The translations under genes and the position numbers were made by a program. Under the pieces are notes generated by a model, which was not told where the DNA came from, did not search any database, and saw nothing but the letters and a program-made list of their open reading frames with translations. A stretch of 57,326 nucleotides of DNA, the filler included, from Sphacelaria rigidula (lineage: Eukaryota), in NCBI GenBank assembly GCA_964200075.2. It is 7 parts of 7 records of this genome, joined end to end, with 100 filler letters (N's around TTAATTAATTAA, not from the genome) between each part and the next. Parts side by side here need not be neighbours in the genome. Positions count along the whole stretch, not along the records: positions 1 to 8,104 come from CAXNAA020012282.1; 6 more parts are not named here. The stretch is one strand, 5' to 3'. Shown piece after piece: positions 1 to 57,326 of this stretch (position 1 is its first letter; the number at the start of each line of letters is the position of its first letter).

Positions 1-2004
1 TTGATCGTGTGACCGGTGGCACCGATAGTTGGTTGCATTTTTGCGTACCTGTGACGTAACACGAGAAGCGTGCCGAGCAGCGTCATCGCGTTTTCGCTTC
101 GCTAGTGAGTGACAACTCTTTTGGTGTCGCAGCAGGTATGGTGCGAGATGGCAAGAGGAGACTTATTCGCTTTTCACGGAGGACAGCCGTACTCAAGCCC
201 GGAAGATTTCAGGCATCACCTGAAGAGCTTGAAATCCGACAGCTGTTGCACCGCGAGTGGTTCATCGTGAGGGGAGCCCAATCGCAGAATGGAGGCCATA
301 ACACTGCAGGCAGCTGCTGGGTTGAGCCGGGGGCGGACAATGGAGCAACAGGCTGTTATCATTCGGGGACGGAATATTCAATTCGTTCATGCCATGTACC
401 TGTTCGGTTCAGTTGCGTGCCGTCGTTTGTTGAATATTGGGGTCCCTGGCGTTCCCACGAGGGCTTCGTGTAGTCGTTTGAACCTTTTCCACGTCGATTA
501 TTGTCATCAATAGGTGTTACCTAAGGCCGTTTGTGTGTCTTTAGCTTGAGCTGCAGAGATATGCTCGGTTTGGCGAGTTGCTGCTTTGTCTCCCGATAGT
601 AATGCCCACGTTCGACAGCGTTTGTATATCATAGCCGTGGACCGGGTTGGCCGCGTGGGTGTCTGCAATATCCGGTGTGCTGCCGAGCAATGCTCGCTAC
701 ACACCATATGCTGTATCCCTGAACTCATATGGTCGTGTGTATGTGTCTTCAATAACTCATGTCTTGAGCGGTGGCTGGACCCCTCTGAGCTTGTTGAAAG
801 TGCTTTCTCAAGCGTCGTGAGCCGACAAGAACATGGAAGTGCTTGATCGTCTGAAGAGTGTTGATGAGCCAAATGCTAAAACACGCGCGTGAATATGAAT
901 CTGTGAATCTGTGAATCTGTAGTTTGTGCCTTGATTTACTGTACCGTACATGTGTCGCTTCACTCGAGGATGAGACTTGGGGCTACTGTAGCTATAGAGG
1001 CTCGGTGCGCTCAAACCCTTGCGATTTGCTTCATACCGGATGTGCAAAGAGTAAAGTGACCAACTCCAGTGCTTTTCGTAACCGCAGTCTCTCAGGGTGA
1101 CATTTGTAGCACAGCGCGCAGTACACGATTTTTCCGGATGCGTGCTGGTTGTCCCAACAAGAATAACATGGCGAAATTGTGCCCTTGAATCCCGCTTGAG
1201 CTGCAAAGCAGCGCCGATGTCTTGCTGCAGCTACACCGGTACCCACCGGCAAATTGACGAAGGGCACTTCCGCGGTAACCAAGGCCAAAGTCTCGCCTGC
1301 CCAGTTGTGACTTGAATCGAGAAAGAAGAATGTATTTCAGCTGGAAATTTGGTGGAGATGCCGAGTCCGTCGTTCCTTTTGCGATATGAATCTTCCTTTC
1401 ACTGCTAAAGAACTATTCAGAGAGGTTTGGTAAATTTGGGCATTCAAGACGCGTTGTAATAAAAGGCAAGCCGATCACTGCATCTGCGCTATCGAATGAA
1501 AAGGGTTCGAAAACACTCGCGGCCGAATCGGCTCAAGTTCGGGTTCGCAAACGCCGAAGAAGTTCATTTCAATTTGGAGCAACGTGCGGTCTTCTGTAAT
1601 ATTGCCCCTCTTTTATTTCGGCTGTTTCAGAACACTCAACACCTCAAAAGTCGAAAATTCACACACATGGCAGGCGCGCGCAACTGAATAGAAAACATCT
1701 TCAAAGTATGGATGAAGTCTCATGCGGAGGTTGGCTCCATGGTTTTTCCGGGGGTAGGAAAATAGCCGTCCCCGGGGCGGTATCCACCTTTTGGCATGTC
1801 GCAAACAGAAGATCGTGCCCCTGACGATCCTAGGAATACATGGTAAGGGTGTGAGGGTGTAGATGTTTCGATGATACCTCTCATGCGTTTAGAAGGATAA
1901 TGCAGTCCGCCCGCAAGTGACTAATATGTCGAATAACACAACCCCCGTGTTCGGGTGTTTGGCGAGGGGAGATTCTTATCTCGTCGTTGGGGAGGGGGGG
2001 GGGG

Positions 2005-2075
2005 TGGGGCGGGTACTCATTTGTTGCTTGCCTTAGTCATTTGACCATTGACCACGCATTCCTTTCGAGACGGAG
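2005..2075 (-). mobile_element. Poly(C)-ended mini-retroposon, subfamily A
   Basis: Matches copies at 3361, 21209, 26805 and 42038; flanked by 18-bp direct repeat gtcgttggggaggggggg (1983-2000 and 2075-2092). Confidence 0.8.
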
Positions 2076-2575
2076 TCGTTGGGGAGGGGGGGAAGCAAGA
2101 CATAATATCAACAATGTGTAGAATGCAGGCGACCATTCTCGAGTTGAGGGGCAATAGCATTCGTTTTTGACACTCCCTGACGACAGGTTATAACCGCTGC
2201 GCGTACGCAGGGACGGGATGTGAAACAATGTATTCCCTGGGGTGTCTGAAGCCCCGTGAAGCAGAACAGGAGGTGTGGCTAGGTAGGGTAGGTTGTACGC
2301 TTTCTGTCACCACCGGTCACGAGTTCACGTTTTTTATATTTCGGCCGTAAATGGTCCAGACGTCGGGTAACACCCCCTTCCCCGTGATAATGTTCGGAGA
2401 GGGGATGCGTTGATATCGTCACTCGGGGGGAGTGAATGGGGGGCGGGAGGAATCATGAAGCAGCGGTATCGTGTGGTTAGGTGTTTTCTGAATACCTTCC
2501 GCGTGTTCAGGCGTATCGCCATTCGTATTTTACAGGCCCTGACAGTAGGTTGTTACCCGTGCGATCACCTGCGGA

Positions 2576-2650
2576 GGGGTGTACTTCTGATCTTGCATGT
2601 CATAGTGATATGACCATTGACCTGACATCCGTGCAAAGCCGGGACGGAGC
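2576..2650 (-). mobile_element. Poly(C)-ended mini-retroposon, subfamily B
   Basis: Reverse complement gctccgtcc...ggtcaatggtca...agtacacccc is homologous to subfamily A and to copies at 12416 and 21291; no TSD visible. Confidence 0.65.
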
Positions 2651-3360
2651 ACGGCAAGTTTTCGCCGGACCAGGCTCTCAATCAATCACCAAACGACAAG
2701 TGGCGTGGTGTGTTCGGCGAGTCGCCCGATGGGTGACCTACATCCTGCTAAGATTGTTCGGCCCGAAGCGTACTGGTTATCTTGCTTATGGATGGCAGCC
2801 TCCAATGAGTTGCTTCGGGGATGGATCAATTTTCTCCCCGGCACGTCTCCCGTTGAGAGAAACGGATGGTACCGCTAGACAGGGTAGACCGTAGGCTTTC
2901 AATTATTGGTACCGATCACGTGTTCAGACTCGTCGCTGTCCGGCCGCGAATGACTCAAACGGACGACGACACCCATTTCACGCTCAGAATATTCGCGGAG
3001 GGGATGTTTTGATTTCATCCTCGGGAAAGGAATGCGGGGAGGAACGGGTCATACATCATTATAATAGAGTGGACACATACATTTTAGCGATGGCTCTCGC
3101 ATGTTCAGGGGCATCGCTCTTCTTGCGTCGAAATGCCTGCATTATGGGTGAGAACGGTGGATGACACGATGACACCCTCCATCGTTTTCGGGGAGGGGAT
3201 GAAGCGGCTCCATCCCCGAGTGGGGGGAAACGGGGGGCTGGAGATGAACAGCTTTTATTGTTTGCACGTGTTATCGACGCCTTCGTCTGTTTAGGTGCAT
3301 CACCATTCGTGTGTAACAGGACAAAATGGTAGATACCAGCCGCGAGAGATAATGTTTTAG

Positions 3361-3433
3361 GGGGGGGCGTACTCATTTGTTGCTTGCCTTAGTCGTTCGA
3401 CCATTGACCACGCATCCCTTTCGAGACGGAGCA
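3361..3433 (-). mobile_element. Poly(C)-ended mini-retroposon, subfamily A
   Basis: Near-identical to the 2005-2075 copy; 16-bp direct repeat taatgttttagggggg at 3350-3365 and 3435-3450. Confidence 0.85.
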
Positions 3434-5390
3434 TTAATGTTTTAGGGGGGAGAAGCATTCACCAAATCCTCGGGTGAGGAAGTACGTTTCATTTTTCATT
3501 CTTCTATAGTTCGACCATCCCAAAAGTAGTTCTGTATTGCCGTTCGCACGTTATGAACCAAACTGTGGATACCACCCCCAAATTCACGACAGAACTCCCT
3601 GCCGGGGACGGCTGTTTCCTCGTCCCCTGTGCCATCATGTACCCCCTCCCCCTCTCAGATTAGACTTGACCAATGTTGCTGTACGATCAAGTGTCATCAA
3701 TCCATAATTAGGCTCTTGATAAAATTTTCAAATGTGTCGGAAATGAAAATCCTCAGAGTGTGGCCTGGGTCATCGTGGTTGTGCCCCGGAGCACTTGAGG
3801 CTCACGCTCCGCAACAGTTCTGTATGCCCTGGAGTAATCATGTTACATTGGCAGCCCTGGACTCAGGCCTGTTTGTCAACGATATGAGGACCTTTCGCGA
3901 GCCGTTCGGAAGGAGCTTACCTTGCATGTAGGCAAGTAGTACACGTAGAACAACAGTGCTGTCGACACGAAGATGCCATTGACTACGCAACGCTTGGCGA
4001 GAGGAGGGCGACTGGTTGTACGATGCCCGCACTATATGGTATATCATGATTGATGTCGTGATACTGCGGAGGTGTTGCGGCGGCTGCGTTTCTGACAATA
4101 TGCCACCCTCTCAGTACAAAAGCCGTTCGACGATACGGGGGGGGGTTATCTGTGCAGTGTTGCCTAAAGGAGCACCGTTACGACACTGCTTGAGTCAGCA
4201 TAGAATCCAGTCGTCAACGCTCGGACGGAGAACCCCCTCCAACGGGATTGTGAGACGGGCTTTTCTTCATTTCCACTCGATCGAGAGGTGACATATCGGT
4301 AGACATGGGAGGAAAATACAGGTCGTTTAATAGAAACAATCTTTCCAATTTTGTTGTCGCGGCAACACAGGGGACGGCAGCCCGTTTTTGTGGGGGTGGG
4401 CCCAATTGCCCGTATTATATGGTCGACACACAAGAAGTTTTTTCGGCTTTTATAGTACATTAGAGCTATATAGCTAAACGCTGGGGGGAAACGACTGAGC
4501 CTATAGACAATTGCTTACCAGCAGAAGGATCAGAGTTGGTCCGATTGAGCGGAAATATCGAAGAGCCAGAACCTGGAGCGGCTGTTTGCTCGTGGATTCT
4601 CGACAACCACATGGCCCGTACAAATTGACCATGGGGATGGTTTCTTTCTCGGATTTTATTTCGAGCATAAACATAACCGTGCGTCTTCGTCAACATTTTT
4701 TTCAAATGCGAGACATCCACTGCGCCGTGGGAAATGACGGTGACCGAAGAATCCGGGGAAACCGCTTTCAGTTCAACCGAATACTACCCGTTCGTTGGAG
4801 GGACGACTGCGATAGCTGGGTTGCCCTTGATGTCGGTATTTGGCGACGTGTCGGTAGCTTGGCGGCGCATGATCGCATGGAAAGGCACGAAAAGACGCGT
4901 GTAGTTGTACATCAGAACCCGTCACCGCCCTCGTTGTTTCGGCCATCAATGTACTACTGCATGTCCTCCCTACCGTGGGCTGGCTCACAAACAAAAAATG
5001 GAAGAGGCAGAAGGCGTTACAAACCGGTTGGTTGCTCTCCTAGCTCCCTGCCTAGTACTATTACTACTTCTGAAATGCAGCGTATTATCATTATCACGAT
5101 AACAGCTGCTTTATCACCAGGCTTCCTGCACCGGCGCTGCACCAATTTTGAATATGGCTAATTCCTATACCCTGAGTGTAAACCTGGCAACTTCCTAGCT
5201 AGCCTATAACGGGACACTTCAGTCCTCCTCCACCCTAAAATGTCACACAGACTGAACCATTCTGTCCCCGGGTTTGCTAGAGGCATAGCGTGCTCGTTTC
5301 TTTTCGAGCACTCAACTGTTTGAGTGGCCCGCGCACGTTTCATTCCAAATCTCGCACAGCAACAGCCAGGCAACAAACGATCCCGCAGTC

Positions 5391-5527: not shown

Positions 5528-5973
5528 AGTTTTTTCAAAAAGGCTTGCGAATAGGAAAGCCAACGGCCGCTGGCGGGTGTTTCGAGGTGTTTACTCTTAC
5601 CGTTGTCGTTGTTTGTGTACTCGTGTTTTGCCTTGCAAGGTAGTAAATCACTCCATAGAGTCGTCGCATTGTCAAGCTGCAATAAGTGGACTACTGCCAC
5701 TGTCCTTCACGCATGCATTTGGCCTATTGTCAATAGATACGCTCTTCTTCAGTTTTTTCAAAAAGGCTTGCGAATAGGAAAGCCAACGGCCGCTGGCGGG
5801 TGTTTCGAGGTGTTTACTCTTACCGTTGTCGTTGTTCGTGTACTCGTGTTTTGCCTTGCAAGGTAATAAACCACTTAATAGAGTCGTCGCATTGTCAAGC
5901 TGCAATAAGTGGACTACTGCCACTGTCCTTCACGCATGCATATGACCTATTGTCAATAGATACGCTCTTGTTC
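5528..5973. repeat. Tandem duplication, 2 x 223 bp
   Basis: agttttttcaaaaaggcttgcgaatagg... starts at 5528 and again at 5751, with only a few substitutions. Confidence 0.95.
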
Positions 5974-7325
5974 ATCCCACTCTCTCCGGGGGAACCTTTG
6001 TTTGTTTCCAGGCAAACATGATGTTGAGCTGTTCATAGCGTTCATTTCCGTCATTTTTTGCCCGGGTTGTTTCGACAACGAACGGCTGTACTCAGTAGTA
6101 GTTGTCCGCAATCTTTCTTGTTGAAGGCCAAGCGCGGGTTGGCTGCGCCGGCACAAAATAAAATGCAGCGAGTCATTGACCTGTACTTCCACGACTAGGA
6201 CAGAGAATGAATGCACTGGATGATCAGAATGAGAGGGCGCCGCGGGGCAAGCCAATATGTCGCGTTAGGGTTGCATCACGATACCTGCGTCAAGGAGTGG
6301 GAAGCAGCATCTTTACGGTTGCCAGTGTTTTCGCTCCCTTCTTTCCAAAATATCTTCAGGTCCCCTGTGGTGATATTTCCTGGTCGAGTTTTGTTCGGCA
6401 CAAAGCGCAGTCAGACTATAGGAATGCACGTGCAATACTACACTTGCTGCGCCCTGCTCATTTCCCTGTGACTCAGCAACTCTTCTCTCCCGCTCAACAA
6501 ACAAACTCACCGGAGGGCCTTGCTTGATAACCATCCCAACTGTTGAATTGTGTTGTGTTGCATGCTATTATTATTATTGTTGCATGCTTGAATATACGCG
6601 CATGCGACCACCGGATGCCATGCACAAAGAATAACCATCTTTCCCCAGAGAAAGTCACCCATATCATGTGCAGTGATAATGTACATATCTGTACAACACA
6701 CAACAGTAGACGGCATCTGTCGATGTAGGCTGAATGGCACCCCCTCAATTGAACGGAAAGATGAAATGCCGGTAACTCAGATAAGCCATTTCCACACACA
6801 CACCGTATGTATGGCCAGTCACTGACTGTTGAGTGCAGGGCAGTATCCAATGCTGCAATGCTGCACAGACAACAGTGGTGTGAATGCGCCGGAAGGACAG
6901 ATCCTAATCTTTTTGCAGTACGTGACGTTACAGATTGTTGTTTTATAACAGTGACATGATTCATACTTCACCATGTTGCTTTCCCAGAAGGGACAGAAAG
7001 TAGTTAGGTGTGACGAAAGTAAGCATCTGCATTCGAGCGGAAATCAACTGTGTTCCTATTCGCGACAGACGGCCAAGCGAGCTACGTAGTGCTGGTTATG
7101 GTTGAGGAAGCGCGTACGCGTACAGATGAGGATTATCTATGCAGAAGTTGTACTGCACATACAAAATCACCAGTAGGGCAAGCTCATGGCGGGGACTGCT
7201 AGTCGCGTTCATCAGCTGGCGGCGTGGTCCGTTCGGTCTCGGTTTGCAGGGAAGCGATATCTTATTCCCATCTCTCTGCATCGCTCTATGAGAGGTACTG
7301 TCTGCTGTACAGCTCAGTGCATAGC

Positions 7326-11940: not shown

Positions 11941-12404
11941 TTCCCCCCCCCCACCCCCCCTCCTCCCGGAGGACATTTTTTCGGAAATTGTCATGTTTTT
12001 TTTCTAATATTGCTCAAGAAATCGATCAAGGAACACTGACAAAACCCAAAGGTCTGGTGGGCTTTGCGAGGTTCGTCCATTTGCTTCTGATCCTTGCCCG
12101 CTCTGTCCCGATGACCTTATGCCGGCCACGCTTACACACATGTATTCGCACGAGCGCACGCTAGCGACAGCCTGCAGGCAAAGTAGCAACATTATCTTAC
12201 TCCCCGCCAAACTTGCGAGGACTACTGGTGGATACTCGAGACACACGACACGGAACATGATACCATAAATGTAATCATGGGTGAATGTTGAGCTTGGGGG
12301 GGGGGGCGTGTCCGCCATCTCATCGGTCTCTGTACACCGCAGCTGACCGCATCCGCCAACGCCTCGGCAATAAACTAGTAGACAGCAGGCTGTGTGTCCC
12401 CCCC
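11941..12404 (+). mobile_element. Composite repeat 'family C' bounded by C-runs; holds one ~170-bp unit that is tandemly amplified at 56350-57060
   Basis: 11965-12125 matches the 170-bp unit; 12340-12404 (gcagctgaccgcatcc...gtgtccccc) matches 57168-57239. Confidence 0.7.
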
Positions 12405-12415
12405 TCAAAAATCTT

Positions 12416-12449
12416 ATGACTATGGCATGCATGATCATGAGTACACCCC
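12416..12449 (+). mobile_element. 5'-truncated poly(C)-ended mini-retroposon, subfamily B
   Basis: atgactatggcatgcatgatcatgagtacacccc flanked by cccctcaaaaa(a)tct at 12401-12414 and 12446-12460. Confidence 0.75.
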
Positions 12450-12674
12450 TCAAAAAATCTAATTTGTTATAATGGGCCTACGTGTCCAGACATGATTTTT
12501 TCGGCAGACCCTTCTTCTCCTCCTATTCATGAATGGCGTCAATGTCTCTCCGGTCCAAATATTGATTCATATAACGCTGACGTCCAAACTCATACTCAAT
12601 CCAAGTAAAAAATGATCCTTCTCGGAACACGTTTATACAATATTCAATATTCACTCGGTCCAACGCGGTTCCGA

Positions 12675-21208: not shown

Positions 21209-21336
21209 GGGGGGGGGGGGGGGGGGGGGCGTACTCATTTTTTCCTTGCCTGAGTCGTTTGATGATTGGCCACAACTGCGGGGGGGGAAAGGAGGGTGTA
21301 CTCATGATCTTGCATGCCATAGTCATCTGACCATTG
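21209..21336 (-). mobile_element. Adjacent poly(C)-ended mini-retroposons: subfamily A (21209-21273) and subfamily B (21291-21336)
   Basis: G-run + cgtactcatttt..cttgcct-agtcgtttga, then G-rich run + tgtactcatgatcttgcatgccatagtcatctgaccattg. Confidence 0.7.
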
Positions 21337-22423
21337 CGGGGTGGGCTGCGTTTCATTTTGCTACCCTCCTTGACCGCCCGAGTGCGTGATGTGGGTCTTG
21401 TGTCTATTATTCAAGTGCAATGATGCCGATTTGACAGATTCCAGATTGCCCACTCTGATTGTCGAAGGTCTTGTAGAGGGTGCAGATTCTCAGATCCAGT
21501 CGTGAAGCTTACGCGTTGGTCTAAGAATGATTGATGACTTGATTTTGGAGTAAACACCGATGTTCGGATCTTTAGAGTGGCTGACAGTCCCGAGTGCTCC
21601 TGACACGCTTGCCCAGGATGCTTATTTGTCCAAATCGGCGCCGATGTGAAGTCTCTAAACAAGGCACATTTTGCCTGGAGCAAATTTTGCACACCCCTTG
21701 CCGGAGGGCTCTCGCATGCCTTGGTCGAGGTCAGGGTTGGTGTTGGGATGAGGGTTAGCGTGAGTTTTAAATCATAAATTTCCGAGAAAGCTCTGTCAAC
21801 CATTCTCACGACCCACAGCGTAAGCACCGCTCCTCACATCGTCAGAGGAATGCCACCACTTCAATCATGCGTACACCCTGGAGAGTTCTGGGTCGGGCAA
21901 CACACCTGTCGTGAAGTGACGATTTCACCGGAGTGACTGGTCGAAATGGTCATGATCTTCCCCTACAAAACGCCCAAAATTGTCCGTCTGCCGGGGGTGG
22001 AGGTGTTGACCATTTGAGCAACTAATCAAGCGATGAAGCGCACAGAGTGGGGGTGACTTGTTGCTCTGCGCAGTCATTTCCGCCTCACCTACCGCAACTT
22101 GTGCGATCAAGGCAGCTGTACTCTGTACGCATGTTGTCGTAGTGTAACACCGTCACACCGACAGTAGAGATGACTACAGCCTGCTGTAGACCGTGTAGAT
22201 GGATTTCTACCGCCCGAAGCAGTTGGCGTCTATCTGATCACCCTGACACGAAACACAACAAGCCGAAGCGCAACACAGCGCCCGCACCATTACCGTTGAA
22301 TAGACATGAACAGGCGCAACACCGAATCAAATACGTGAGACATGTGTGTGCCATCGAATCGGGCAGGCGCCCATTGGAAAACAGGGGGTTTGATGAGCAG
22401 GAGGGCACATGCAGTAGAGTTAA

Positions 22424-24982: not shown

Positions 24983-25322
24983 TGTTCCTTGATACGTGAT
25001 CCGTACACAGGGACAGCTGGGAACGACTGGTGAAGTCGATCAAAGGACACGACCAAGCCGATCATCTTGTTTCAGAATAGTAGTATTACATAGCTAGACT
25101 ACGTGAAGAGAAATAAGAGAAGGAAGTGACTTGCTGCGGCTACCCAACACCGTGATAAGCGGAGCCTCCCTACCAGACATTGCGTACGTGAGTGCAAAAC
25201 ATGCGCCTACTATGGTAGTAAATCCTACCGCATGTGACTGTCAAAACCCGTGAAGACAGGTACCTCTGTACCGTGGTTGATCAATCCTGTAGACTACACT
25301 GGAAGGGCTGTTAACTCGAATA
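24983..25322 (+). mobile_element. 3'-truncated LTR of the same Copia family as 27732-28248
   Basis: Starts TGTT and aligns along its length with 27732-28092, with scattered substitutions and one ~20-bp indel. Confidence 0.9.
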
Positions 25323-26804
25323 CCCCCCTTGCACCGGCATTTCAGTAGCAGGCTTACAGGAAACCAGCCCAGACAACGACATTTCATCGTGTGAGCAGAG
25401 ATGCATCTCCCCAAACAACACACGTCACCAAATCAAACAGGTACTTTCGGAAAAAGATTAAACCTGCCCTCACAGACATTTTATACCAGTATCATGGGTA
25501 CGCCCATTCTTTCGAAAAGTTACTTTGAAATTCGCTGTACCTCATTCAAATTCTTGCGCTAAAAGATCTCGATCAGCGTGCCAAGACTCAAAATCAAGCT
25601 CTCGGGAAACTAGAATAATATCCGTAATTGGAAATTTGCAAACAGAGACTCCCACGTTTTTCGCCTTCCAACGGTGCAAGCAATACAGGGCACACCGAGT
25701 ATCGGTTCGGACAATCATTTAACTTTGCAACGCCGTACTTGAGTACAAAATCAACCCCTCAGGTGAGGTTTACTTGACGCCCATCTCGCAGTACGGCGTG
25801 CGCATCATCGAGTGCACATGCCCACATTTTCAAATCGTTGAGATATCAATATTCGAAACAGAAAACAGAAAAAAAAAATGATTTCAGTCAAAGACTTTGC
25901 AACCCTTCCATCGCGATCCAACAGAGCAAAAATGCTCGGCACCTACCTTCCGGCATACAGTCAGTCAAGCATATAGTCAGTCGTGTACCAAAACCTTACC
26001 TAGCGAACCGCCAGGGCGAACATTTGCTCAACTATTTTTAACACGCGCAATCAAAAGCACAATTTGACATGACAGCCCCCCCCCCCCCCTATTTTTTGCT
26101 TTCAAACAGTCTGCATCTCTCTCTTTCCCCCCCTCGTTTCGGGCTATGAAAATGGGTGGGCGTCTGCATCGCGGAGCATTGTTTCCTTTCTCAACCGATG
26201 CCCATCGAGATATCCATGCAGCGGGGATTGTGTTCGTTGCCGGTTTGCGCCCACCCAATATCAGCTTGCCACCTATCGCCTGAAAAACGATTTCAGATAT
26301 CGAGCCTCACCGGAAAGTAAAGCTCGACGCAAAACAGTGGAGATGGGGAAATATCCAGAAGCGTATCAGTTACCAGGTCTTATCAATAAAGTGATATCTC
26401 GCCCCATCGACCGTTATAATCAAGCAGTCAAAATTATTATTCTACAAGGAGTTGCATCATGACAGCCATCTGTATGCTTGCGCATGTCTACCCTCCGCAC
26501 ATGATCCCAGTGCCGTCAATATATATATATCTTGACCACAAATCCCATGGGGTGCAAAAAAGACCAGTCTTCGTTTCATCATGTCATGAAATAACACCTT
26601 TTGTCTACCGCATGGGCCTCGTTCTGCCAGCTCACAGCCCCAAAACTACATCAAAAACAGGTGCAAAGTAGCATTTTTTTCTTTCTCATGTCGACATGTA
26701 CACCTACCACATACTGAATACGTGGTGTGCATCTCAATCTGTACCTCACAGGGCACCGGCAATTACTGTTCCGTTTCAAACAGCCCCCCCCCCCCACCCC
26801 CCAG

Positions 26805-26868
26805 TCGAAAGGGATGCGTGGTCAATGGTCAAACGACTAAGGCAAGCAACAAATGAGTACGCCCCCCC
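26805..26868 (+). mobile_element. Poly(C)-ended mini-retroposon, subfamily A
   Basis: tcgaaagggatgcgtggtcaatggtcaaacgactaaggcaagcaacaaatgagtacg-C7; direct repeat ccccccagt at 26797-26805 and 26863-26871. Confidence 0.85.
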
Positions 26869-27529
26869 AGTTAATTAACCGCGTCAACGCCACAAGCCGC
26901 TGCCAAACGCACTTTGGCATCTCTTGTGTTTCCACCTTTATGGAAATCGAAATCAAGGGGCAGCCCATCAAGTTCACGAGGAGAAGTGTTCCTCTCTACT
27001 CTGTCAAAATAAAAGACCAAGAAGTATCATAAAATCAAGAATTTTGACTCTACGGAGTGTATGTCTTAGGAATCAACTGGTCGGCATCAGTCACATGGGT
27101 ACTTCTGTATTCTACTGGGATATCTAAATACCGACATCATCGGTACAATCAAGCCAGGGGTGTAGCGTCCTACCCGCGCTGCACCTATCGAGACGATCTT
27201 CATAACTTTTCAACGACCATGCTAGCTGGTAACAGTGCCCCGTGCCCCACACCCCACAGGCGACTTTAAAATGGAATACATTGGACTGGGTCCGCGTTTC
27301 ATGTGAACATGACCCCAGCGCCAAAAAGATAGGTCATCCGCAGATACCAGGTATCGAAAATACATTTCGCCATCAACCAACCAAGTTCGGAAAATTCAAC
27401 CCAACACTCCAAGGGGAAGCGAATAGTGCATTACTCTGACCTTGGAAACGGTACGTCCTTGTGAAAAGGTCCCAACGTCGATCACCTAGGGCGCCCAAAA
27501 CTACGTGCGCGTGGTGAGGTGCGTCTCAC

Positions 27530-27731: not shown

Positions 27732-28248
27732 TGTTTCTTGATACGTGATCCGTACCCAGGGACAGCTGGGCACGACTGGTGAAGTCGATCAAAAGACACG
27801 ACCAAGCCGATCATCTTGTTGTAGAATAGTAGCATTACATAGCTAGACTACGTGAAGAGAAAGAAGAGAAGGAAGTGACTTGCTGCGGCTAACCAACACC
27901 GTGATAAGCGGAGCCTCCCAACCAGACATTGCGTAGCCTTCCAACCAGACATTGCGTACGTGAGTACAAGATATGTGCCTACTATGTAGCAAATCCTACC
28001 GCGTGTAACTGTCGAAACCGATGAAGGCAGGTACCTCTGTACCGTGGTTGATCAGTGCTGTAGACTACACTGGAAGGGCTGTTCACTCGGATAGAGCGCA
28101 ATCAACCATCTGCCTGATCTGTTCTTACTTTGAGTTGCAGACGCAACTGGTCTAAAAACCACGGTGCAACCTCTGCTACACTACCTTCTGCGCGATAGTA
28201 GTCAGCCTGTCTTTGGGACAGTGCTACAGAACACGAGCTATTCCAACA
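27732..28248 (+). mobile_element. 5' LTR (517 bp) of a Ty1/Copia element
   Basis: TG...CA ends (tgtt...aaca), second copy at 24983, followed by a degenerate PBS-like gactttgagcc and gag. Confidence 0.85.
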
Positions 28249-28444
28249 GACTTTGAGCCATCGATTTGCGAGCACGTAGGTCAGCAGGTCATCAGACTTC
28301 GATTCAAGACTACGTCGGTCAGCACCAGCGAAGAGACTTTCCATCAAGGTCGTCACAGCAGCAAAAAGTGAGAGGAGTCCAGCCTTCAGTTTTTTTCATT
28401 GCATAGGGTTTGAGGTGTGATGAATTATCACACATTTGTAGAAG

Positions 28445-30545
28445 ATGAATAATCAAGGAGAACCATATGTTGCACAGCTCATCAAGAGCGTCAAGAAATT
28501 CGACAGTACTAATTTCCTCGAATGGACGCGCAGCACGCGTGCCACGATTTCTCTGACACATCCAGGGATTTCTGATATAATGAATGGACGTAAACGTCCC
28601 GCGGATATTTTTGATGACGTGGAGCACATTCAAGGTGCCGAATCACTTCCAGTTGCACGATCCACGTCAAGGTCAACTCCGCCACACACCCGCTCCCAAG
28701 GAACCCAACCGTTTTCATCTGAAGGGGCAGCCGGAAGAAGTGATCCAGTTGAGGACCCGACTGGCGGCGAAGTGGACTTCTCCCGGGAGGACACACCTGT
28801 GAGAGTTGTGGTGAACAGATTTGAAGTTGAGAATGGGCGTCGCTGCAGCGAGCAGTTGTTCAATATTTGATACTCGACAACTACAGGCCCAGCGGGTAAT
28901 TTTTTCCTTCGCTTCGAGCCGAAGGGCCATGCAAAACCGAACGGCAAGACTGCGTGGGAGGCCCTGGTCGCTAAATACAAGAATTCTTCGAGTTAACGGT
29001 GGCGCATTCTCATGCGTCAGCTAGATAACATCAAAATGGCGCCTGGACAGGAACCTGACGTGTTTCTGACCAAAGTCTATCAACTTCGTGACCAGCTAGT
29101 GTACATGGGTGAGCCCATCTCAGATTAGAGGCTGACTGACATCGTGGTGGAAGGTTTGACCGATGAGTACGACAGGATAAAGTATGATGCAGAGCGCGAT
29201 CCTGACTTCAGCATCTCCGACATTGAAGTCACTATGAAGAACATGTACTCAAATCGCGTTGCACGCGGTATTTTGTCAAAGAGGGTACGTGGTCGTGATT
29301 CCGCCACGATAGCGGCATCGCCGCTTGATTCATCTGCAACACCTACAAGATTCACAGGAAAATGTTATTCCTGTGGGAAACCTGGTCACCACATGCGTGA
29401 CTGTCTTTTTAGAAGACAGTAAAACAGCGGGAACAGGCCTGGGAAATGGCGCAGTCTTCATCGTATCGATAAACTCGACAATTCTGAATGCAAGAGTCAA
29501 ATTGCCAACGGTAGTGCGTTTAAGAACAGCAGCAGGAACGACGACTACTACAACAAGAACAACAATCGCCGTCGTCACAACACACCCAATAATAACATTA
29601 TCTCCGGCTCCAGCGCAAGTGACATCATCAACCATCCGAATCAAGCAAATACCGTCACCATGGCTCCTGCATCGACCACTGCATCAACTACTGCATCGAA
29701 TACTGTTCTCTCCAATAACCAAGTTCAAGATACCAGCGGACCTTCATCAACAGTGACTGACTCATGCTCGCCACCAAGCGGCATGGGTTTCACCTTTCTT
29801 GCTGATCCTGCTGACAAGGACAACACTCGGACACCGGTTTCTATATCATTCCAGATGGCATGTGATTCCGGGGCTCACCACCATTACCTTGGCGACCAGC
29901 TACTGCCCAATATTGAAGAAGAGATGTTTGACTACCTGAAACTTGATCCCCCATGAGAATCCTTAGAGCAGGTCGCCATCTCCTTAGCGGAACAGGAAAA
30001 GGGGTGCTCCAATCCATTGTCTGTGATCAGCAGGGTAATTAGCACTCCGTCCGCCTTCCAGCGATTGTTGTTCCGGGCCTGGGAAAACATATTTTCTCAC
30101 CTATTGAAGCAACAAAGGGTGTTTCAACCATATTCTCCGTCAACTCTCACGTGGACCTTGCAAAATTCAAAATTCCAATCCGTACCGACAATAATGGTAC
30201 GCTACACTTCCTCAACATGAAGGTTATTCGGGATCAGAAGACCTTCCACACCAACTCCGGGTCAGCTCTTACTGCTGAGGTGGTGTCCGGAGAACGCATG
30301 GGCCCAGGGACAGCATCTACAGTTCACCGAGGACGACACCTCAGCTCTTTCAACCACTGTGAGTGCGGAAATATGGCATAGACGCCTTGGACATCAAGCT
30401 AAACCAGTTATGCATCGTTAAATGCATATACCTGAAACACATGTCAAGTTTTTAGGTTCACTTTCTTCCTGTGACACAGGCGTACTGAACAAAAGCACCC
30501 AGCAAAATCATCCCAAGACCGCCTCATCGGTGACTAAGCGCCGAC
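28445..30545 (+). pseudogene. Ty1/Copia gag-protease-preintegrase with in-frame stops, truncated before the integrase core
   Basis: Gag KFDSTNFLEW and AWEALVAKY; zinc knuckle CYSCGKPGHHMRDC (29363-29404); protease CDSGAHHH (~29861); WHRRLGH (~30373). Confidence 0.92.
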
Positions 30546-30549
30546 GATT

Positions 30550-32716
30550 AAGAGTGGATCCTGGAAAATGGGGTCCATCTCAAAAATGAGATTTAAGTGG
30601 AATATCCTTTTCGCAGGGATGACGCGACACAGTAACACAGAGCGAAACCATATTTCCCCCCAAATGTCTGTATCAGTTAAGCAGTTGTGGCTAGGTGCAC
30701 CGAACGAATGCGGTGTAAACGCGTGTCGATGACGATATCACCAGAGAGAGAAGCAACGGCAGAGAGGAAGCTCCTCGCCCGGATCCTCTGTGTGTCCTCG
30801 CTCGGCGATTACCAATCGCTCGAGAGACCGGCATCATCGATGTTACCAGCATGTGCCCAATTTTCCATGTGCCTGTACGCATGTTATTATGTTGCTGCGC
30901 ACAGCCTCCCAAAGAACAGCGACGCGCGGAGAGATTTTGTCTCTTCTTGCCCGTGGAGCTCACCAACGCGAAAATCGATTTCTCTCTGCCTCTCTGTTTG
31001 GACAGGGCGCGCCTCGGTGCGTTGAAAAACATGTCGTTGACAAACAGGGCAGTGTTCCCGTCACCGCTACTACTGTTCTCTGTCACACACATGCCAGCAA
31101 AGGCGGTGCTGCGGCGATAAGAACAGATCCAGTTTGAACTTGGGCGGTGTTATTCATCATTGACTTTACCCGACACGTGACCATATAGGCGCCCGACCAC
31201 AAGAGCGTGCCACAGGCGAGTTGGGGTGTGTGTGAGAGAGATCAAACACTTGTGGAGACCTTCTTGACATGCGGAGTGAATAAAGATACCGGTGGTGGTG
31301 ACCTAACTGTTGCTGGCGTGGTGCAGAGGGGTGCGTCAATGCTGCAATCCGGAGCTTTCGTTGCTCTACTGTACTGACTGCCGTCTGTAGAGACGTCACC
31401 CACCGTAACAACATGTATGTACCAAATTTCGGAACAGCTATAGAAACAGAACACTTCAATGTTATAACTGCGTTCACATGATTGGAATGACTCTTGTTAC
31501 CTGAGGAGCTATGGCTTCCTCGTCGTACGCTAGGATGGCTTCCCTGCCCCCCCGCCGGGTATTAATGAACGACGGTAGAGTTGTTACAAGCGCATACAAC
31601 ACTCATGGGGGCACGGAGAGTTTCTTCTCCATGAAAACACGTGTTTTCTAACCCACAAAGCGTTTCATGCGCATTGTTCTAATACAAACGGTGACTTGTC
31701 GATTTCTATTCCGTTCTCCACGGACTGCCTCATGTTCGATGGTATCTTCGCATGTTTAAGCGGACCCGAAGCGGCCACCTTCCCTCAGGTCTCGAGAGTC
31801 GTTTACGTTGTGTGGATGTGTAGCTGAGAAAAATCAAACTGTTTAGCTTTCACAACTGTTGCAAACTTCGGTGCATGTTATTACGGTGAACTGCTGTGAA
31901 CAGACGGGGGTAAGTACGGTAGAGCAACGAAAGCTAGCTGTGACCGAGTTTGCCTGCCGTACTGCCGACAGCGTTGCGTGAAAGCCACAAGACCTTTTGC
32001 TGTTGGGGGTTGATGGCGTCGGTCTCACATACAACGACAAGTGGTTGATCGCAGAGCATTCTCGTCCCAACTTGCAATGCATGACCTCCCCACATCGAAA
32101 TTAATTCTCAAAAGCTACTCGTACTGTACCGAGGTGTTCACGCGACCACCGTGTGCTCCAGATTGAAGCATGGGTGGACTCCTATGCACCACGCTAGCAA
32201 CAGTTAGGTCACCACCATAGGTCTTTTTTTTTTCATTTCGCTCATTAAGAAGGTCTCTACAAGTGTTTGATCATACACCCTCGACTGACGTCTGGCACGC
32301 TCTTCTGGTCGGGCACCCAGAGGGTCAGATGTGGGTAAAACCAACAATGAATAACACCCCTCACGTTCAAATTGAAAATATTTGTTATTGCCGCACCACC
32401 GCCCTTGCTGGCATGTGTGTGACAGATAATAGTTGTAGCGGTGACGGGAACATTGCCCTGTTTTTCAACGAAATGTTTTTCAGCGCACAGATGCACGTCC
32501 TGTCCAAACAGAGAGGTAGAGAGAAATCGGTCTTCGCATTGGTGAGCTCGACAGGCAAGAAGAGACGAAATCTCTCCGCAGCCCGATGTTCTGGCACATG
32601 AAAAATTGGGCACATGCTGGTAACATCGATTATGCCAGTCTCTCGAGCGATTGGTAATCGCCGAGCGAGGACACACAAAGGACACGGGCGAGGAGCTTCC
32701 TCTCTGTCGTTGCTTA
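30550..32716. mobile_element. Long-TIR foldback (MULE-like) non-autonomous element
   Basis: 30751-31450 is the inverted homologue of 31838-32715 (extra ~220 bp in the right arm); the right end runs into the contig end. Confidence 0.8.
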
Positions 32717-35757: not shown

Positions 35758-36370
35758 TGAGGTTGTGTTTGGATCGAACCTATATCCGTACCTCCCCAAG
35801 GTATATACCTGTGCTGATACCTGCAATGGAGTATATCTATAACGGTATACCCGAACCCCGGGTAGGGGTCAGGGAGGCTTACAGAGCTCCCAGAACTGTC
35901 GAGTACCGGTACTGGATGAAAGTCTTACAGAAATTACAGAAGTTGTCGGGTACGGTATGGGAGGCTCACAGAAAAACAGTAACAGCAATCGGGTATTTCT
36001 TCACGAGCATTCCCGCGCTCCGGGTACGGGTAAACATTCTGTACAGAACTCACAGCACTGTCGGGTAAGGGTTTGGGAGGCTCACAGAACTCACAGAAAC
36101 TGTCGGGTAGGGTATGGAGGTTGAACAGAAAACCGTACCCGCAATCGGGTATCTTATCAATAGCGTGCCCGTGCCCCCCGGCAACGGTACAGGAGTCTTC
36201 CAGAGATCACAGACCTGTCGGGTAAGGTTATGAACGTCTTCCAGAGATTACAGAACTGTCGGGTATAGGTATGAAAGTCTTACAGAAGTCACACAACTGT
36301 CGGGTGCGGTAAATTCCCGGCAAAATACGTCGGGTATACAGAAAACCGCACCCTACAGAACACAACCTTG
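35758..36370. mobile_element. hAT-like MITE filled with ~40-bp internal repeats
   Basis: Ends tgaggttgtgtt / aacacaaccttg; repeated acagaactgtcgggta-ggtatg-a-gtcttacaga units; no TSD found. Confidence 0.65.
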
Positions 36371-37547: not shown

Positions 37548-38085
37548 AGCAGCAGCAGCAGCAGCAGCGTGGAAAAGTACTGTGGGATCCTCGAGAGCAG
37601 TGCAGCGAAGGCTGAGAGACAAAGGGGGAAACTATTGCTCGAAATTTGACCATCTTGATGCTACTGCTGCGGTCTGTCGAGTTGCGCTGCTGCCGTGCAG
37701 TGGGCAGCAGCAGCAGCATGGAAAAGTACTGTAGTACCCTCGAGAGCAGTGCAAAGCGAAGGCTATGAAGATAATAGGGGAAAATATTGCTCGAAATGTG
37801 ATCATCGTGATGCAACTACTGCGGTGTCTTATTGTGCTGCTGCCGTGCAGCTGGCAGCAGCAGCAGCAGCAGCAACAACAACATGGAAAAGTATGGTAGT
37901 ACCCCCGAGAGCACTATGGCTAATGCTGAGAAATTACCGAGGAAAATATCGCGCTAGATACGATCATCGTGGTGGTGGTGCTGCCGTGTGTCGTGTCGTG
38001 CTGCTGCCGTTTGGCTTGCCACAGCAGCAGTAGCAGCGCGAAAAAGTAATACCCTGGACAGCAGTACAGCGAAGGCTGAAATAAT
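37548..38085. repeat. Tandem repeat, ~3.5 x 150-165 bp, each unit led by (CAG)n
   Basis: (cag)n-gaaaagta recurs at ~37570, 37720, 37885 and 38040. Confidence 0.85.
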
Positions 38086-38562
38086 GCTTGTGTCGCAACC
38101 CTTGATCGTTGATACTGCATGTTCGACCACGCCCACGCCGTTTTGTTGGCCCTGAGGCAAACATTATCCCTACACTGTGAGGTCCAGAGCCAGTTTTGAC
38201 GTGAATGACACAAGAACGTCTCAACATAGCGGAAAAGCTGCGAAAGAGCAAGAAGGGTGAGGGTCGTGGAGCCTCCGTAGTAGTCCGACGGGGCGGTAGC
38301 CAACAATGTGCACGGCGGGGGTTACAGCAGAAGGGAAGTCAGACGACTCTGAGGAGGAGGGGGAGGGGAAGGGAGATGAAAAGAAGCAAGAGAAGCCAGA
38401 CGTCAGGGGGCGTACGTGCACCCTGGAGATGCGTTTTCCTCTCATTTGGTGAAGGGGTACAACGGACAAAGAGAGCACACCCTGGACAATAGATAGCGTT
38501 GGCAAGAAGTGTACTGTGTACCGTATCGAATCTATTGTCTCATGCTCTGTTGCAACAGAAAA

Positions 38563-38841
38563 CAAGGTTTTCGTGAGATTGAGAGTTTGGTGCGGATTGA
38601 GAGGGGGTTTTATCATTCGCTTTAACTTCGCCAATTTTTCATTCCGTGTGTGCTTTTCGTCTCATCACTGCCATGTGCTTACAGCTACACGTTGATATCC
38701 TACTCAAGGGTATCGAGGGCCTCAGTGGCAAGCTACTACAAAGAGAATATTGGGCATGGTGNNNNNNNNNNGGCTTATTCACTAATTGACCGCTTTTCAC
38801 TCTCAATCGTACCTTCAACTCTCAATTTCACGAAAATGTTG
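38563..38841. mobile_element. hAT-like MITE
   Basis: TIR caaggttttcgtgagattgagagt / actctcaatttcacgaaaatgttg; the same end (CAGTGTTTTCGTGAGATTGAGAGT) occurs at 49071-49123. Confidence 0.7.
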
Positions 38842-41020: not shown

Positions 41021-42037
41021 GTTGCGGTCGCCAGCGAGGTAAGTGTTGGGTTGGGTTTCCTCCTTCCATCAAGGAAAAAAAAAAAAATCCGGCGAGACTA
41101 CAGCAGTCTTTTCAAAACCGACAAACTGACCAAATTGTTGCCATTTTTTGTACATGCACACCGCCGACATTTTATGGGACTCTATGACTAACTGCCCTGG
41201 GTGTGGTCGAATTGAAAAAGTAGACGCGGCATATCATTCCCACGAGCAAGGATTTCAACCTCTATTACGGGTATACTGACTGAAGAACCCAGCATTCAGA
41301 TCAACAGTACAGTAAACTACGATAGTCCAGGATGTGAAGAAAAGTCACGATCTGGTGCACACAAAGATGTCGTTGTTTGTTCTCTTCTGCAGTACGTCAT
41401 CAGTCCTGAACATGATCCCGTAACACAGAAGATTTTTGGCATTAGAAAGTGCGTGATCTAGATCTTTTCGCGCAGTCAAGTCTCCGACGGAACAACAAAA
41501 AGCTTGCGACTACATTTTTATAGAAGAACATTCTGCGATGGACGTGTGCCTTGCCATGCGAGGTGCAGAATGAATGCTGGAATGAAATGCTGGGTGGCAC
41601 CCCGACGGAATAAGCAAAGACGGAGCAGTACTGCCTGATCATTTCGGACAAGGCCAGGGTAGTACTGCTACTACCGCATCATAGTGAAGGACTGTCCTGT
41701 GCGGTACGCACGGACGATACCGGCGAAGCACATGAAGGATTGGCTCCCAAGAGGCAGACGGTAAATTCATCTTTACTGCTGTTGTAGCTTTCGAGATATG
41801 CCTGACTGAGTTCCCCCTCCCGGATGAGTGAAGTAAAGGAAGGCAAAATGAAATAGCTTGATACACTAGACGGTAGCGAGAAAATGATCGCTATATTAGG
41901 AGATGGATGGTGGCCACAGACGGCAAAACAGGAAGGGGTAAAATACGTAAAAGATTTTGTGTAATGTACGGAAAAACATAACGAGCGCCCAGATGTTGGA
42001 GGTGTCTCTATTAGGAGTAGGAACGGTGCTCTCTGTT

Positions 42038-42103
42038 CGTCTCGAAAGGGATGCGTGGTCGACGATTACACGACTAAGGCAAGCAACAAATCAATACGCC
42101 CCC
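42038..42103 (+). mobile_element. Diverged poly(C)-ended mini-retroposon, subfamily A
   Basis: cgtctcgaaagggatgcgtggtc...cgactaaggcaagcaacaaatcaatacgccccc. Confidence 0.75.
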
Positions 42104-57240: not shown

Positions 57241-57326
57241 CCCTCCCCCTATGTAGAGACGTCGAAACGGGAGGGTAGTGGCCCGACAGAACTGCAGAGA
57301 GAGTTTACTAGAGATGAAGTAAAAGA

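What the first reader, a model, noticed from the sequence alone, without database searches (positions are those of the whole stretch)
1983..3450. Tiny retroposons with poly(C) tails and TSDs that begin in C/G tracts
Seen: at least 8 copies on 5 unrelated contigs (A: 2005, 3361, 21209, 26805, 42038; B: 2576, 12416, 21291) of a 30-75 nt element. All share the 3' end ...AGTAC(G/A)C followed by a C-run (AATACGC in the 42038 copy), with variable 5' truncation. Four copies have direct repeats of 18, 16, ~14 and 9 bp, and in element orientation each repeat starts with the C-run. Established: variable-length TSDs, 5' truncation and a tail matching the target are hallmarks of target-primed reverse transcription, usually with poly(A)/T-tract or microsatellite priming. 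Inference: a non-LTR element here nicks G-tracts and primes on a poly(C) RNA end, a G/C mirror image of L1/Alu. I know no described family like this but cannot search. No Pol III boxes are visible, so these may be bare LINE 3' ends.
Basis: partly seen in the sequence, partly recalled or inferred. Interest (0 to 1): 0.75.

Follow-up and report, generated by a model that had tools for sequence, protein, structure and literature searches.

The report
C-tract-targeting LINE retrotransposon remnants
These short repeats are truncated copies of a common jumping gene and its freeloading partner, which insert at runs of C; the same kind is already catalogued in the brown alga Ectocarpus, and only an unusually frequent 65-base form is left unexplained.

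Summary
All 8 copies on 5 contigs are present, and exact 3'-end motifs occur 4,282 (A) and 3,112 (B) times in the 244-Mb genome. A is the 3' end of a 5.3-5.9 kb single-ORF APE-endonuclease/RT LINE whose stop codon lies 5 nt before the C-run. B is a ~560-nt non-autonomous partner sharing the LINE's 5' head and 3' ~50 nt. C-tract targeting holds: 55 of 77 non-nested sites have >=5 C just upstream, 27 of 93 have exact TSDs (shuffled 1.35), and 9 of 141 have empty paralogous sites. It is not undescribed. Dinatale et al. 2025 (PMC12477816, Supplementary Material 3) list Ectocarpus RTEX-1/-2_Ec32 (single EN-RT ORF, (C)n 3' end, C-rich TSD, 5.5-5.9 kb) and ~600-bp RTEX-N1, and this genome's RT groups with Ectocarpus proteins. 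Direct comparison with their consensus was not possible. A poly(C) RNA tail is not shown; much of the 'tail' is the TSD. Unexplained: 26 of 46 A copies are 60-68 nt, start sharply and look younger than long copies. Verdict: new member of a known kind.

The parts
2013..2075 (-). Family A copy, last ~63 nt of the LINE (ORF C-terminus, stop codon, 5-nt 3' UTR)
   Evidence: 95% to long copy L104; tblastn to residues 1343-1360 of P0001
1983..2000 (+). 3'-side copy of the 18-bp TSD of A2005; the G-rich stretch 2001-2012 is the C-run junction
2075..2092 (+). 5'-side copy of the 18-bp TSD of A2005
2580..2816 (-). Family B copy, 3' 237 nt of the ~560-nt non-autonomous element; no clear TSD
   Evidence: 80-81% to three full-length B copies; repeat depth over 2592-2843
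3368..3433 (-). Family A copy, ~65-nt class
   Evidence: 97% to L104 and to metagenome LINE L213
3350..3365 (+). 3'-side copy of the 16-bp TSD of A3361; 8 G at this junction against 6 at the other
3435..3450 (+). 5'-side copy of the 16-bp TSD of A3361
12415..12445 (+). Family B copy, 3' 31 nt; TSD 12401-12411 / 12446-12456 exact, about 14 bp with one indel
21230..21273 (-). Family A copy, 44 nt, followed by a 21-C run (21209-21229); adjacent to a B copy
21297..21336 (-). Family B copy, 3' 40 nt; 7-nt repeat 21277-21283 / 21335-21341
26805..26861 (+). Family A copy, 57 nt; TSD 26797-26805 / 26863-26871
41848..42098 (+). Family A copy, ~250 nt, encoding the last ~80 residues of the ORF (broken); TSD doubtful
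   Evidence: 65% to P0001 1281-1360, E 1e-21
57251..57326 (+). Internal A-LINE fragment (linker before the RT) starting right after a C-run at 57227-57248; cut by the contig end
   Evidence: 84-90% to L102, L105, L213
16731..16752 (+). Empty paralogous C-tract site; the homologous repeat in L119 carries a 65-nt A insert here
   Evidence: flanks 73-80% identical

Best explanation
A is the 5'-truncated 3' end of an abundant, now decayed RTE-X-type LINE: 5.3-5.9 kb, a fixed 5' head, a ~63-bp tandem array in the 5' UTR, and one ORF of about 1,360 aa (N-terminal RRM-like domain, APE endonuclease, RT, C-terminal Cys/His knuckle) that stops 5 nt before a C-run. B is its ~560-nt non-autonomous partner, mobilised through the shared 3' module. 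Mechanism: the endonuclease nicks the G-rich strand in or beside a G-tract [inferred]. The G-ended 3'-OH pairs with the C-run and adjacent bases at the RNA's 3' end and primes reverse transcription [inferred from junction overlaps and from the RTE model in PMC6007223]. A second nick 7-20 nt away gives a TSD that starts with C [shown as product]. Most copies are 5'-truncated [shown]. Each insert leaves new C-tracts that later copies reuse [shown]. The RNA's C-run is most simply copied from the donor's own genomic C-tract by read-through, with no tailing enzyme needed [inferred].
For: Parent: L020 runs 5' into an RT. 30 more loci show a truncation gradient and APE/RT motifs; Pfam RVT_1 E 4e-20 and Exo_endo_phos E 2e-5 on own copies. 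Intact relatives P0001, P0003 and L213 end in the same C-terminus as A, and own copies L102, L104 and L105 are colinear with P0001. Head-to-tail copies are 5,305, 5,705, 5,919 and 6,804 nt. RT tree: 3 own copies + L211/L212/L213 + Ectocarpus-labelled P0129, P0144, P0008, P0039, P0020 form one clade, SH-aLRT 100. Targets: 55 of 77 non-nested sites have >=5 C within 25 nt upstream; G 0, A 1, T 0 of 77; baseline 2.2%. TSDs 27 of 93, 24 of 27 starting with C, 7-20 nt. 205 of 231 ends are followed by CCC and 1 of 231 by A6. 9 of 141 sites have empty paralogs; e.g. L086 vs L307 has target C7, 14-nt TSD and 3' run C12. 16 of 93 lie within 70 nt of another A/B end against 1 of 88. B shares 47 nt of the A head (81-83%) and ~52 nt of the A tail (77%), longest ORF 89-107 aa. 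The Ectocarpus curation matches on every listed feature.
Against: No direct comparison with RTEX-1/-2/-N1_Ec32 or Repbase RTEX sequences: the FASTA supplements could not be read, so the clade name is borrowed. The tree is the quick one, unrooted and without named clade references. Only 27 of 93 sites show an exact TSD (49 of 93 allowing a mismatch, shuffled 13.8). No intact ORF among the 141 and 150 scored candidates (longest open frame 650 aa). No empty allele seen in 4 sequencing runs, all contigs. Nick position and RNA end are not observed. The host is inferred to be a brown alga from homologs only.
Confidence: 0.87

Rival explanations
1. The ~65-nt A class is its own mobile unit, not random truncation: an RNA with a discrete 5' end equal to the ORF-protein-bound 3' module (trimmed or cut from read-through or intron RNA), retrotransposed in trans and in a later wave than the long copies.
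For: 26 of 46 scorable A copies are 60-68 nt (binomial p 1e-16 against uniform over 20-100 nt); 7 of 17 incidental copies are 61-69 nt. Of 46 short copies, 19 start at exactly -65; the match rate falls from 35 of 46 at -65 to 17 of 46 at -66. Mean pairwise difference is 0.074 (n=33) against 0.171 (n=15) for long copies under the same motif filter; inner region 32/673 vs 22/191, p 0.048; exact TSD 13 of 27 vs 0 of 8, p 0.015. The unit folds as a closed three-way junction whose first strand begins at -66.
Against: Short and long copies have the same majority sequence. B shares the module but has no peak at the homologous site; its peaks are near 96-99, 300 and 560 nt. Folding z-scores are only -1.0 to -1.9 and covariation does not exceed shuffles (236 of 500). 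Classing by alignment length favours clean short copies, and TSDs of long copies are harder to find; 3 of 3 copies of 86-90 nt also have exact TSDs. No Rfam hit. A late, poorly processive master LINE stalling at a hairpin would give the same picture.
Confidence: 0.3
2. One reading: the RNA carries an enzymatically added poly(C) tail, a true mirror image of L1/Alu poly(A).
For: The element adds C beyond the target in some sites: 8 of 27 exact-TSD sites; L062 A65 has a 4-C target copy and a 10-C 3' run; A3361 has 8 against 6. There is no room for a polyadenylation signal in the 5-nt 3' UTR and no poly(A) at the junctions.
Against: Median pure C-run after the end is only 6 (A) and 4 (B); the 3' run is shorter than the upstream run in 15 of 27; many tails are interrupted; several inserts have no C-run and overlap the target by the last element bases instead (L116, L175, L203). 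Every donor already sits in a genomic C-tract that read-through would supply.
Confidence: 0.12
3. The endonuclease has no G-tract preference; C-tract sites are selected only because G-ended nicks can anneal to the RNA's C-run.
For: PMC6007223 (passages) reports for RTE-related elements that the first TSD base follows the 3' repeat and that base pairing may select sites. Sister and more distant relatives end in AT-rich, (TC)n, (CA)n or (TAG)n repeats, so the tail turns over easily. Some targets have only 3-4 C.
Against: Sites usually hold far more C than priming needs (31 of 77 have >=8). L116 and L175 primed without the C-run yet lie 0-3 nt from a C-tract (two cases only).
Confidence: 0.3
4. 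The repeats are termini or internal pieces of a DNA transposon, Helitron or Penelope-like (Chlamys) element.
For: Chlamys PLEs also favour (C)n (PMC8557442 passage) and occur in Ectocarpus.
Against: The parent encodes APE + LINE-type RT; fixed 3' end, graded 5' truncation, variable TSD; no terminal inverted repeat or pseudo-LTR seen in full-length A heads and ends.
Confidence: 0.01

Closest known systems
RTEX-1_Ec32 and RTEX-2_Ec32 (Ectocarpus LINE/RTE-X; PMC12477816, Supplementary Material 3, rows seen)
   Same: Single EN-RT ORF, (C)n 3' end, C-rich TSD, 5.5-5.9 kb, thousands of mostly short copies. Ectocarpus-labelled proteins are the closest named homologs (64% over the RT), and P0129 ends in the same C-terminal motif as A.
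   Different: Different host genome (244 Mb); copies here are old (about 82-85% alike) and no intact ORF was found; only one autonomous family is seen (best match to the second type 45%). The 65-nt mode, TSD statistics and nick geometry are not in the passages and tables I read. Sequence identity to their consensus is untested.
RTEX-N1_Ec32 (604-607 bp non-autonomous element, same source)
   Same: ~600 bp, non-coding, head weakly homologous to the LINE 5' end, ~60-bp shared 3' end, C-rich TSD, often in tandem.
   Different: B is ~560 nt and carries a ~48-nt repeat at its 5' end and ~100 nt from its 3' end, which gives a second size class near 96-99 nt; identity to RTEX-N1 is untested.
RTE-clade LINEs and their SINEs with microsatellite-like 3' ends (PMC6007223, passages)
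   Same: First TSD base matches the 3' repeat; LINE and partner share a 3' end; base-paired priming is proposed.
   Different: Those use T/A-rich repeats such as (GTT)n and (CAA)n and an upstream T-stretch; here it is a C mononucleotide tract.
Chlamys Penelope-like elements (PMC8557442, passages)
   Same: Insertion bias to (C)n.
   Different: GIY-YIG endonuclease and pseudo-LTRs there; APE endonuclease and LINE RT here.
Mammalian L1/Alu (recalled; ORF2p is the best PDB match, E 7e-21)
   Same: APE-RT TPRT, homopolymer at the 3' junction, variable TSD, 5' truncation.
   Different: Poly(A) and T-tract nick, two ORFs, relaxed RNA recognition; here C-tract, one ORF, shared 3' sequence module.

Membership tests
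Ectocarpus-type RTE-X LINE (RTEX-1/-2_Ec32) | Single ORF with endonuclease and RT | tested here: met
   Own copies are colinear with the 1,360-aa P0001 and intact L213; Pfam Exo_endo_phos + RVT_1. Own copies are all broken.
Ectocarpus-type RTE-X LINE (RTEX-1/-2_Ec32) | (C)n 3' end | tested here: met
   205 of 231 ends are followed by CCC; also L211, L213 and L214 from other samples
Ectocarpus-type RTE-X LINE (RTEX-1/-2_Ec32) | C-rich TSD | tested here: met
   27 of 93 exact TSDs against 1.35 shuffled; 24 of 27 start with C
Ectocarpus-type RTE-X LINE (RTEX-1/-2_Ec32) | Length 5.5-5.9 kb | tested here: met
   5,305, 5,705, 5,919 and 6,804 nt in 4 head-to-tail copies, some with indels or insertions
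Ectocarpus-type RTE-X LINE (RTEX-1/-2_Ec32) | RT groups with Ectocarpus LINE proteins | tested here: met
   Clade support SH-aLRT 100 in the quick tree of 117 rows. That these proteins are RTEX-1/-2 is inferred: the curated RTE families end in (CAA)n and CRE in (CA)n.
RTEX clade (Repbase) | RT phylogeny or best hit with named RTEX elements (RTEX-4_NV, RTEX-1_BF) | not testable with these tools
   No Repbase; FASTA supplements unreadable
RTEX-N1_Ec32-type non-autonomous element (family B) | ~600 bp, non-coding, LINE-like 5' head, ~60-bp shared 3' end, C-rich TSD, tandem copies | tested here: met
   ~560 nt in most head-to-tail copies, longest ORF 89-107 aa, head 81-83% over 47 nt, tail 77% over 52 nt, 18-bp TSD in L156; adjacent copies common
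RTEX-N1_Ec32-type non-autonomous element (family B) | Sequence identity to the RTEX-N1 consensus | not testable with these tools
   Supplement FASTA unreadable; a B-like piece follows the LINE end in metagenome locus L214, 73-77%
SINE (Pol III RNA-derived head) | tRNA/5S/7SL-derived head | tested here: inconclusive
   ARAGORN 0 genes in 10 loci; Rfam gave 2 chance-level hits in 7 loci; a degenerate head would be missed
Chlamys Penelope-like element | GIY-YIG endonuclease | tested here: not met
   The endonuclease is Exo_endo_phos/APE type
L1/Alu-type | Poly(A) tail and T-tract target | tested here: not met
   1 of 231 ends with A6 nearby; A>=5 upstream in 1 of 77
TIR transposon / Helitron | Fixed two ends, fixed or no TSD, transposase or Rep-Hel | tested here: not met
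   Graded 5' truncation, TSD 7-20 nt, RT-coding parent

The most novel reading that the evidence does not exclude
The ~65-nt A class is a self-propagating minimal retroposon: just the LINE protein's 3' RNA-binding module plus a genomic C-run, released from read-through RNA with a discrete 5' end, with no promoter of its own. It amplified after the full-length LINE had largely decayed, using a G-tract-cutting APE endonuclease.
Probability: 0.25. Interest if true: 0.62.

Novelty: new member of a known kind. Interest (0 to 1): 0.3.

Why it matters
The system is already catalogued, but only as rows in a supplementary table, and I saw no mechanistic treatment of it in what I read. It offers a natural G/C counterpart to L1 for asking whether the endonuclease or RNA-DNA pairing chooses LINE targets: intact ORFs exist (P0001, P0003, P0144, L213), and sister lineages with AT-rich tails give a matched control. 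The family shapes this genome (at least 7,394 exact 3' ends, about one per 33 kb) and seeds its own targets. If the 65-nt class is a real mobile unit, it defines a minimal TPRT template.

Tried and rejected
Empty allele at the window loci: 4 runs laid, contigs only, no listed joint removing an element; uninformative. No RNA holder listed. Ribozyme or known RNA at either end: Rfam none; by-eye HDV, hammerhead and pistol patterns (recalled) did not fit. RNAalifold on a poor alignment missed the first helix; on a better alignment the proposed structure was 95.8% paired but with no covariation above shuffles. Second autonomous family as B's parent: best identity 45% among 150 of 3,846 candidates scored. 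3' transduction or poly(A): shared downstream sequences were other A/B copies or common target repeats. A metagenome scan with a single protein found nothing; the alignment found 80 loci. The single-sequence fold of the N-terminal domain failed (pLDDT 36); the profile found no PDB sequence match and Foldseek no hit at E<=0.001. The ESM Atlas gave only generic EN-RT clusters. Pfam found nothing in 12 window ORFs, and one ORF search gave one unnamed hit, so the host was not confirmed from host genes. Literature searches; only PMC12477816 described this family, and one search listed no paper on a comparable 65-nt class. Three look-ups in earlier findings returned nothing.
Full report
Observation. 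The window is seven contigs joined by N spacers; its first piece is G000:C12282 of a 244-Mb, 27,214-contig genome. Their true extents are A 2013-2075, B 2580-2816, A 3368-3433, B 12415-12445, A 21230-21273, B 21297-21336, A 26805-26861 and A 41848-42098; a ninth, internal A piece lies at 57251-57326. Exact flanking repeats are 18, 16, 11 (about 14 with one indel), 9 and 7 bp, and begin with C in element orientation; three copies have none that convinces. Genome-wide, an exact 19-mer of the A end occurs 4,282 times and a 20-mer of the B end 3,112 times, with 0 hits for each reversed pattern. These are lower bounds.

What A is. Among the first 30 genomic copies, L020 continued 5' into a reverse transcriptase. 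Walking 5' gave a truncation gradient and APE endonuclease and RT motifs, Pfam RVT_1 and Exo_endo_phos, a ~63-bp tandem array in the 5' UTR and a sharp 5' head shared by 30 of 30 loci fetched for it. Four head-to-tail copies measure 5,305-6,804 nt. All own copies are broken, about 82-85% alike, and the longest open frame among 141 scored RT hits was 650 aa. Intact relatives exist: P0001 (1,360 aa), P0003 and metagenome locus L213 end in the same C-terminal peptide that the tiny A copies encode, with the stop codon 5 nt before the C-run. So A is the last ~20 codons plus a 5-nt UTR of a single-ORF LINE.

What B is. B copies extend to a fixed 5' end about 560 nt upstream. There is no long ORF (89-107 aa). 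B shares 47 nt of the A head at 81-83% and ~52 nt of the A tail at 77%, and carries a ~48-nt internal repeat at its start and ~100 nt from its end. No tRNA or Rfam family was found. No second autonomous family turned up as its parent (best 45% among 150 of 3,846 candidates scored), so A is the likely driver (inference).

Target and junctions. The sample was the loci of the first 30 listed hits of each pattern plus 20 more each in list order, skipping hits close to contig ends. That gave 106 distinct ends, of which 13 were dropped for contig ends or N gaps. Of 93 sites, 27 have an exact repeat of >=7 nt with >=3 non-C bases, against 1.35 (maximum 4) in 100 shuffled pairings; 24 of 27 start with C; lengths are 7-20, median 11. 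Allowing one mismatch gives 49 of 93 against 13.8. Sixteen of 93 lie within 70 nt of another A/B end, against 1 of 88 further upstream. Of the other 77, 55 have >=5 C within 25 nt upstream, none has >=5 G or T and one has >=5 A; random window 25-mers have 2.2%. Across all 231 ends in hand, 205 are followed by CCC and one by A6. Nine of 141 tested sites have empty paralogs. The cleanest are L086 against L307 (target C7, 14-nt TSD, 3' run C12) and B or A copies inside antisense A bodies. So the tracts pre-exist and the element can add C. But the 3' run is longer than the upstream run in only 8 of 27 sites, equal in 4 and shorter in 15, and a few inserts overlap the target with the last element bases and no C-run. 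The 'poly(C) tail' is therefore part TSD, part element-supplied.

Mechanism. Shown: the products above. Inferred: a nick on the G-rich strand in or beside a G-tract, pairing of the G-ended primer with the RNA's C-run, reverse transcription by the ORF protein bound to the shared 3' module, and a second nick 7-20 nt away. This follows the model for RTE-related elements in PMC6007223 (passages) and the shared-tail rule for LINE/SINE pairs in PMC3747384 (passages). The RNA's C-run needs no tailing enzyme, because every donor sits in a C-tract. Whether the endonuclease or the pairing picks the site is open: long tracts (31 of 77 with >=8 C) and two C-run-independent primings beside tracts favour the enzyme, while rapid turnover of tails among relatives favours pairing.

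Comparison with what is known. The closest named homologs are Ectocarpus proteins (64% over the RT; clusters). In a quick tree of 117 RT rows (careful search unfinished, no named clade references; L086 and L214 fell below the length filter), three own copies, L211-L213 and the Ectocarpus-labelled proteins form a clade with SH-aLRT 100. L211, L213 and L214 end in the same stop-plus-C-run. Related loci L215 and L218 (a neighbouring clade) and L249 keep a similar end motif but have AT-rich tails, and more distant loci end in (TC)n, (CA)n or (TAG)n. Dinatale et al. 2025 (PMC12477816; I saw the abstract, outline, main-text passages, part 1 of 3 of Supplementary Material 3 with row searches, and rows of Supplementary Material 4) list RTEX-1_Ec32 'single EN-RT ORF; (C)n 3'', RTEX-2_Ec32 '(C)n termini/TSD', both with C-rich TSD and 5.5-5.9 kb, and RTEX-N1_Ec32, 604-607 bp, head weakly homologous to the LINE 5' end, 60-bp shared 3' end, often tandem. 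A and B match these descriptions point by point. Their FASTA supplements and Fig. 1C could not be seen and bear directly on the naming. (C)n targeting is also reported for Chlamys PLEs (PMC8557442, passages), which this is not. PMC4421812 (passages) reports an RTEX-1 in kelp; PMC5753468 (passages) only lists the clade; of PMC4245944 I saw the abstract and outline. The host is probably a brown alga; this rests on homologs and on a run labelled algae metagenome holding the stretch, not on host genes.

What remains unexplained. Twenty-six of 46 scorable A copies are 60-68 nt, and 19 of 46 short copies start at exactly -65 (98 copies examined, 52 long). The short class is less diverged than long copies under the same motif filter (pairwise 0.074, n=33, against 0.171, n=15; 51 of 69 ends classed) and keeps exact TSDs more often (13 of 27 against 0 of 8). 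The unit folds as a closed three-way junction. Against a separate element: the majority sequence is the same as in long copies, B has no peak at this site, the fold has weak z-scores and no covariation above shuffles, and classing by alignment length may bias the age test (inner-region p only 0.048). One dedicated search listed nothing comparable; that is thin.

Verdict. A real, abundant TPRT system; a new member of the C-tailed RTE-X LINE plus non-autonomous partner already curated in Ectocarpus. Interest 0.3; the 65-nt mini-element reading has probability about 0.25 and would deserve about 0.6.

Noticed in passing
ORF residues ~15-90 (L213:907-1290; P0001 N-terminus): Conserved ~90-aa domain in front of the APE endonuclease in the same ORF; AlphaFold pLDDT 74 overall (84-95 in the core), RRM/ferredoxin-like, best Z 6.5, rmsd 2.6 over 72 residues. 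May be an ORF1-like RNA-binding domain fused to ORF2; a Z under 8 is not decisive.
   Followed up: partly
A head (L291-L320, from ~1505) and B head (L321-L350): A 47-nt stretch shared by both 5' ends forms a hairpin whose loop could pair downstream and looks by eye like a tRNA D-arm or A-box (recalled); ARAGORN and Rfam are negative and folding z is near 0.
   Followed up: partly
B elements, e.g. L156:105-668: A ~48-nt repeat at the very 5' end and ~100 nt from the 3' end; 5' starts of short B copies cluster at the second copy (about 9 of 47 at 88-99 nt) and near 300 nt.
   Followed up: partly
Proteins P0010-P0047; loci L215, L218: A neighbouring clade at about 45-52% RT identity, some on contigs of 0.1-3 Mb with hundreds of cluster members and unnamed host, keeps the C-terminal motif; the two loci with DNA have AT-rich tails. 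A patchy host range is possible but untested.
   Followed up: partly
L116 (G000:C35, 5' junction): Ten extra bases at the 5' junction read like telomere-type TTAGGG repeats; single case.
   Followed up: no
window 30751-32715: Long inverted repeats (128 nt 93%, 211 nt 87%, 88 nt 78%) suggesting a foldback or TIR element; each arm holds an empty paralog of an A insertion seen in L109.
   Followed up: no
window 38560-38864 and 49066-49121: A ~300-nt element with terminal inverted similarity that is also inserted inside LINE copy L105; MITE-like.
   Followed up: no
window 28442-29956 (+): Broken ORFs, one ending in a DSGA motif suggestive of an LTR-retrotransposon protease (recalled); no Pfam hit, one unnamed homolog at 39%.
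   Followed up: partly
window 5528-5974, 35916-36305, 37555-37868, 56447-57064: Tandem repeats of 223 nt (x2, 96%), 41/157 nt, 152 nt and 172 nt (x3.6); a single related unit of the last lies at ~11966-12117.
   Followed up: no
window 24983-25322 and 27732-28093: Direct repeats of 204 nt (95%) and 108 nt (90%) about 2.75 kb apart, enclosing the A26805 copy; possible LTR pair or local duplication.
   Followed up: no
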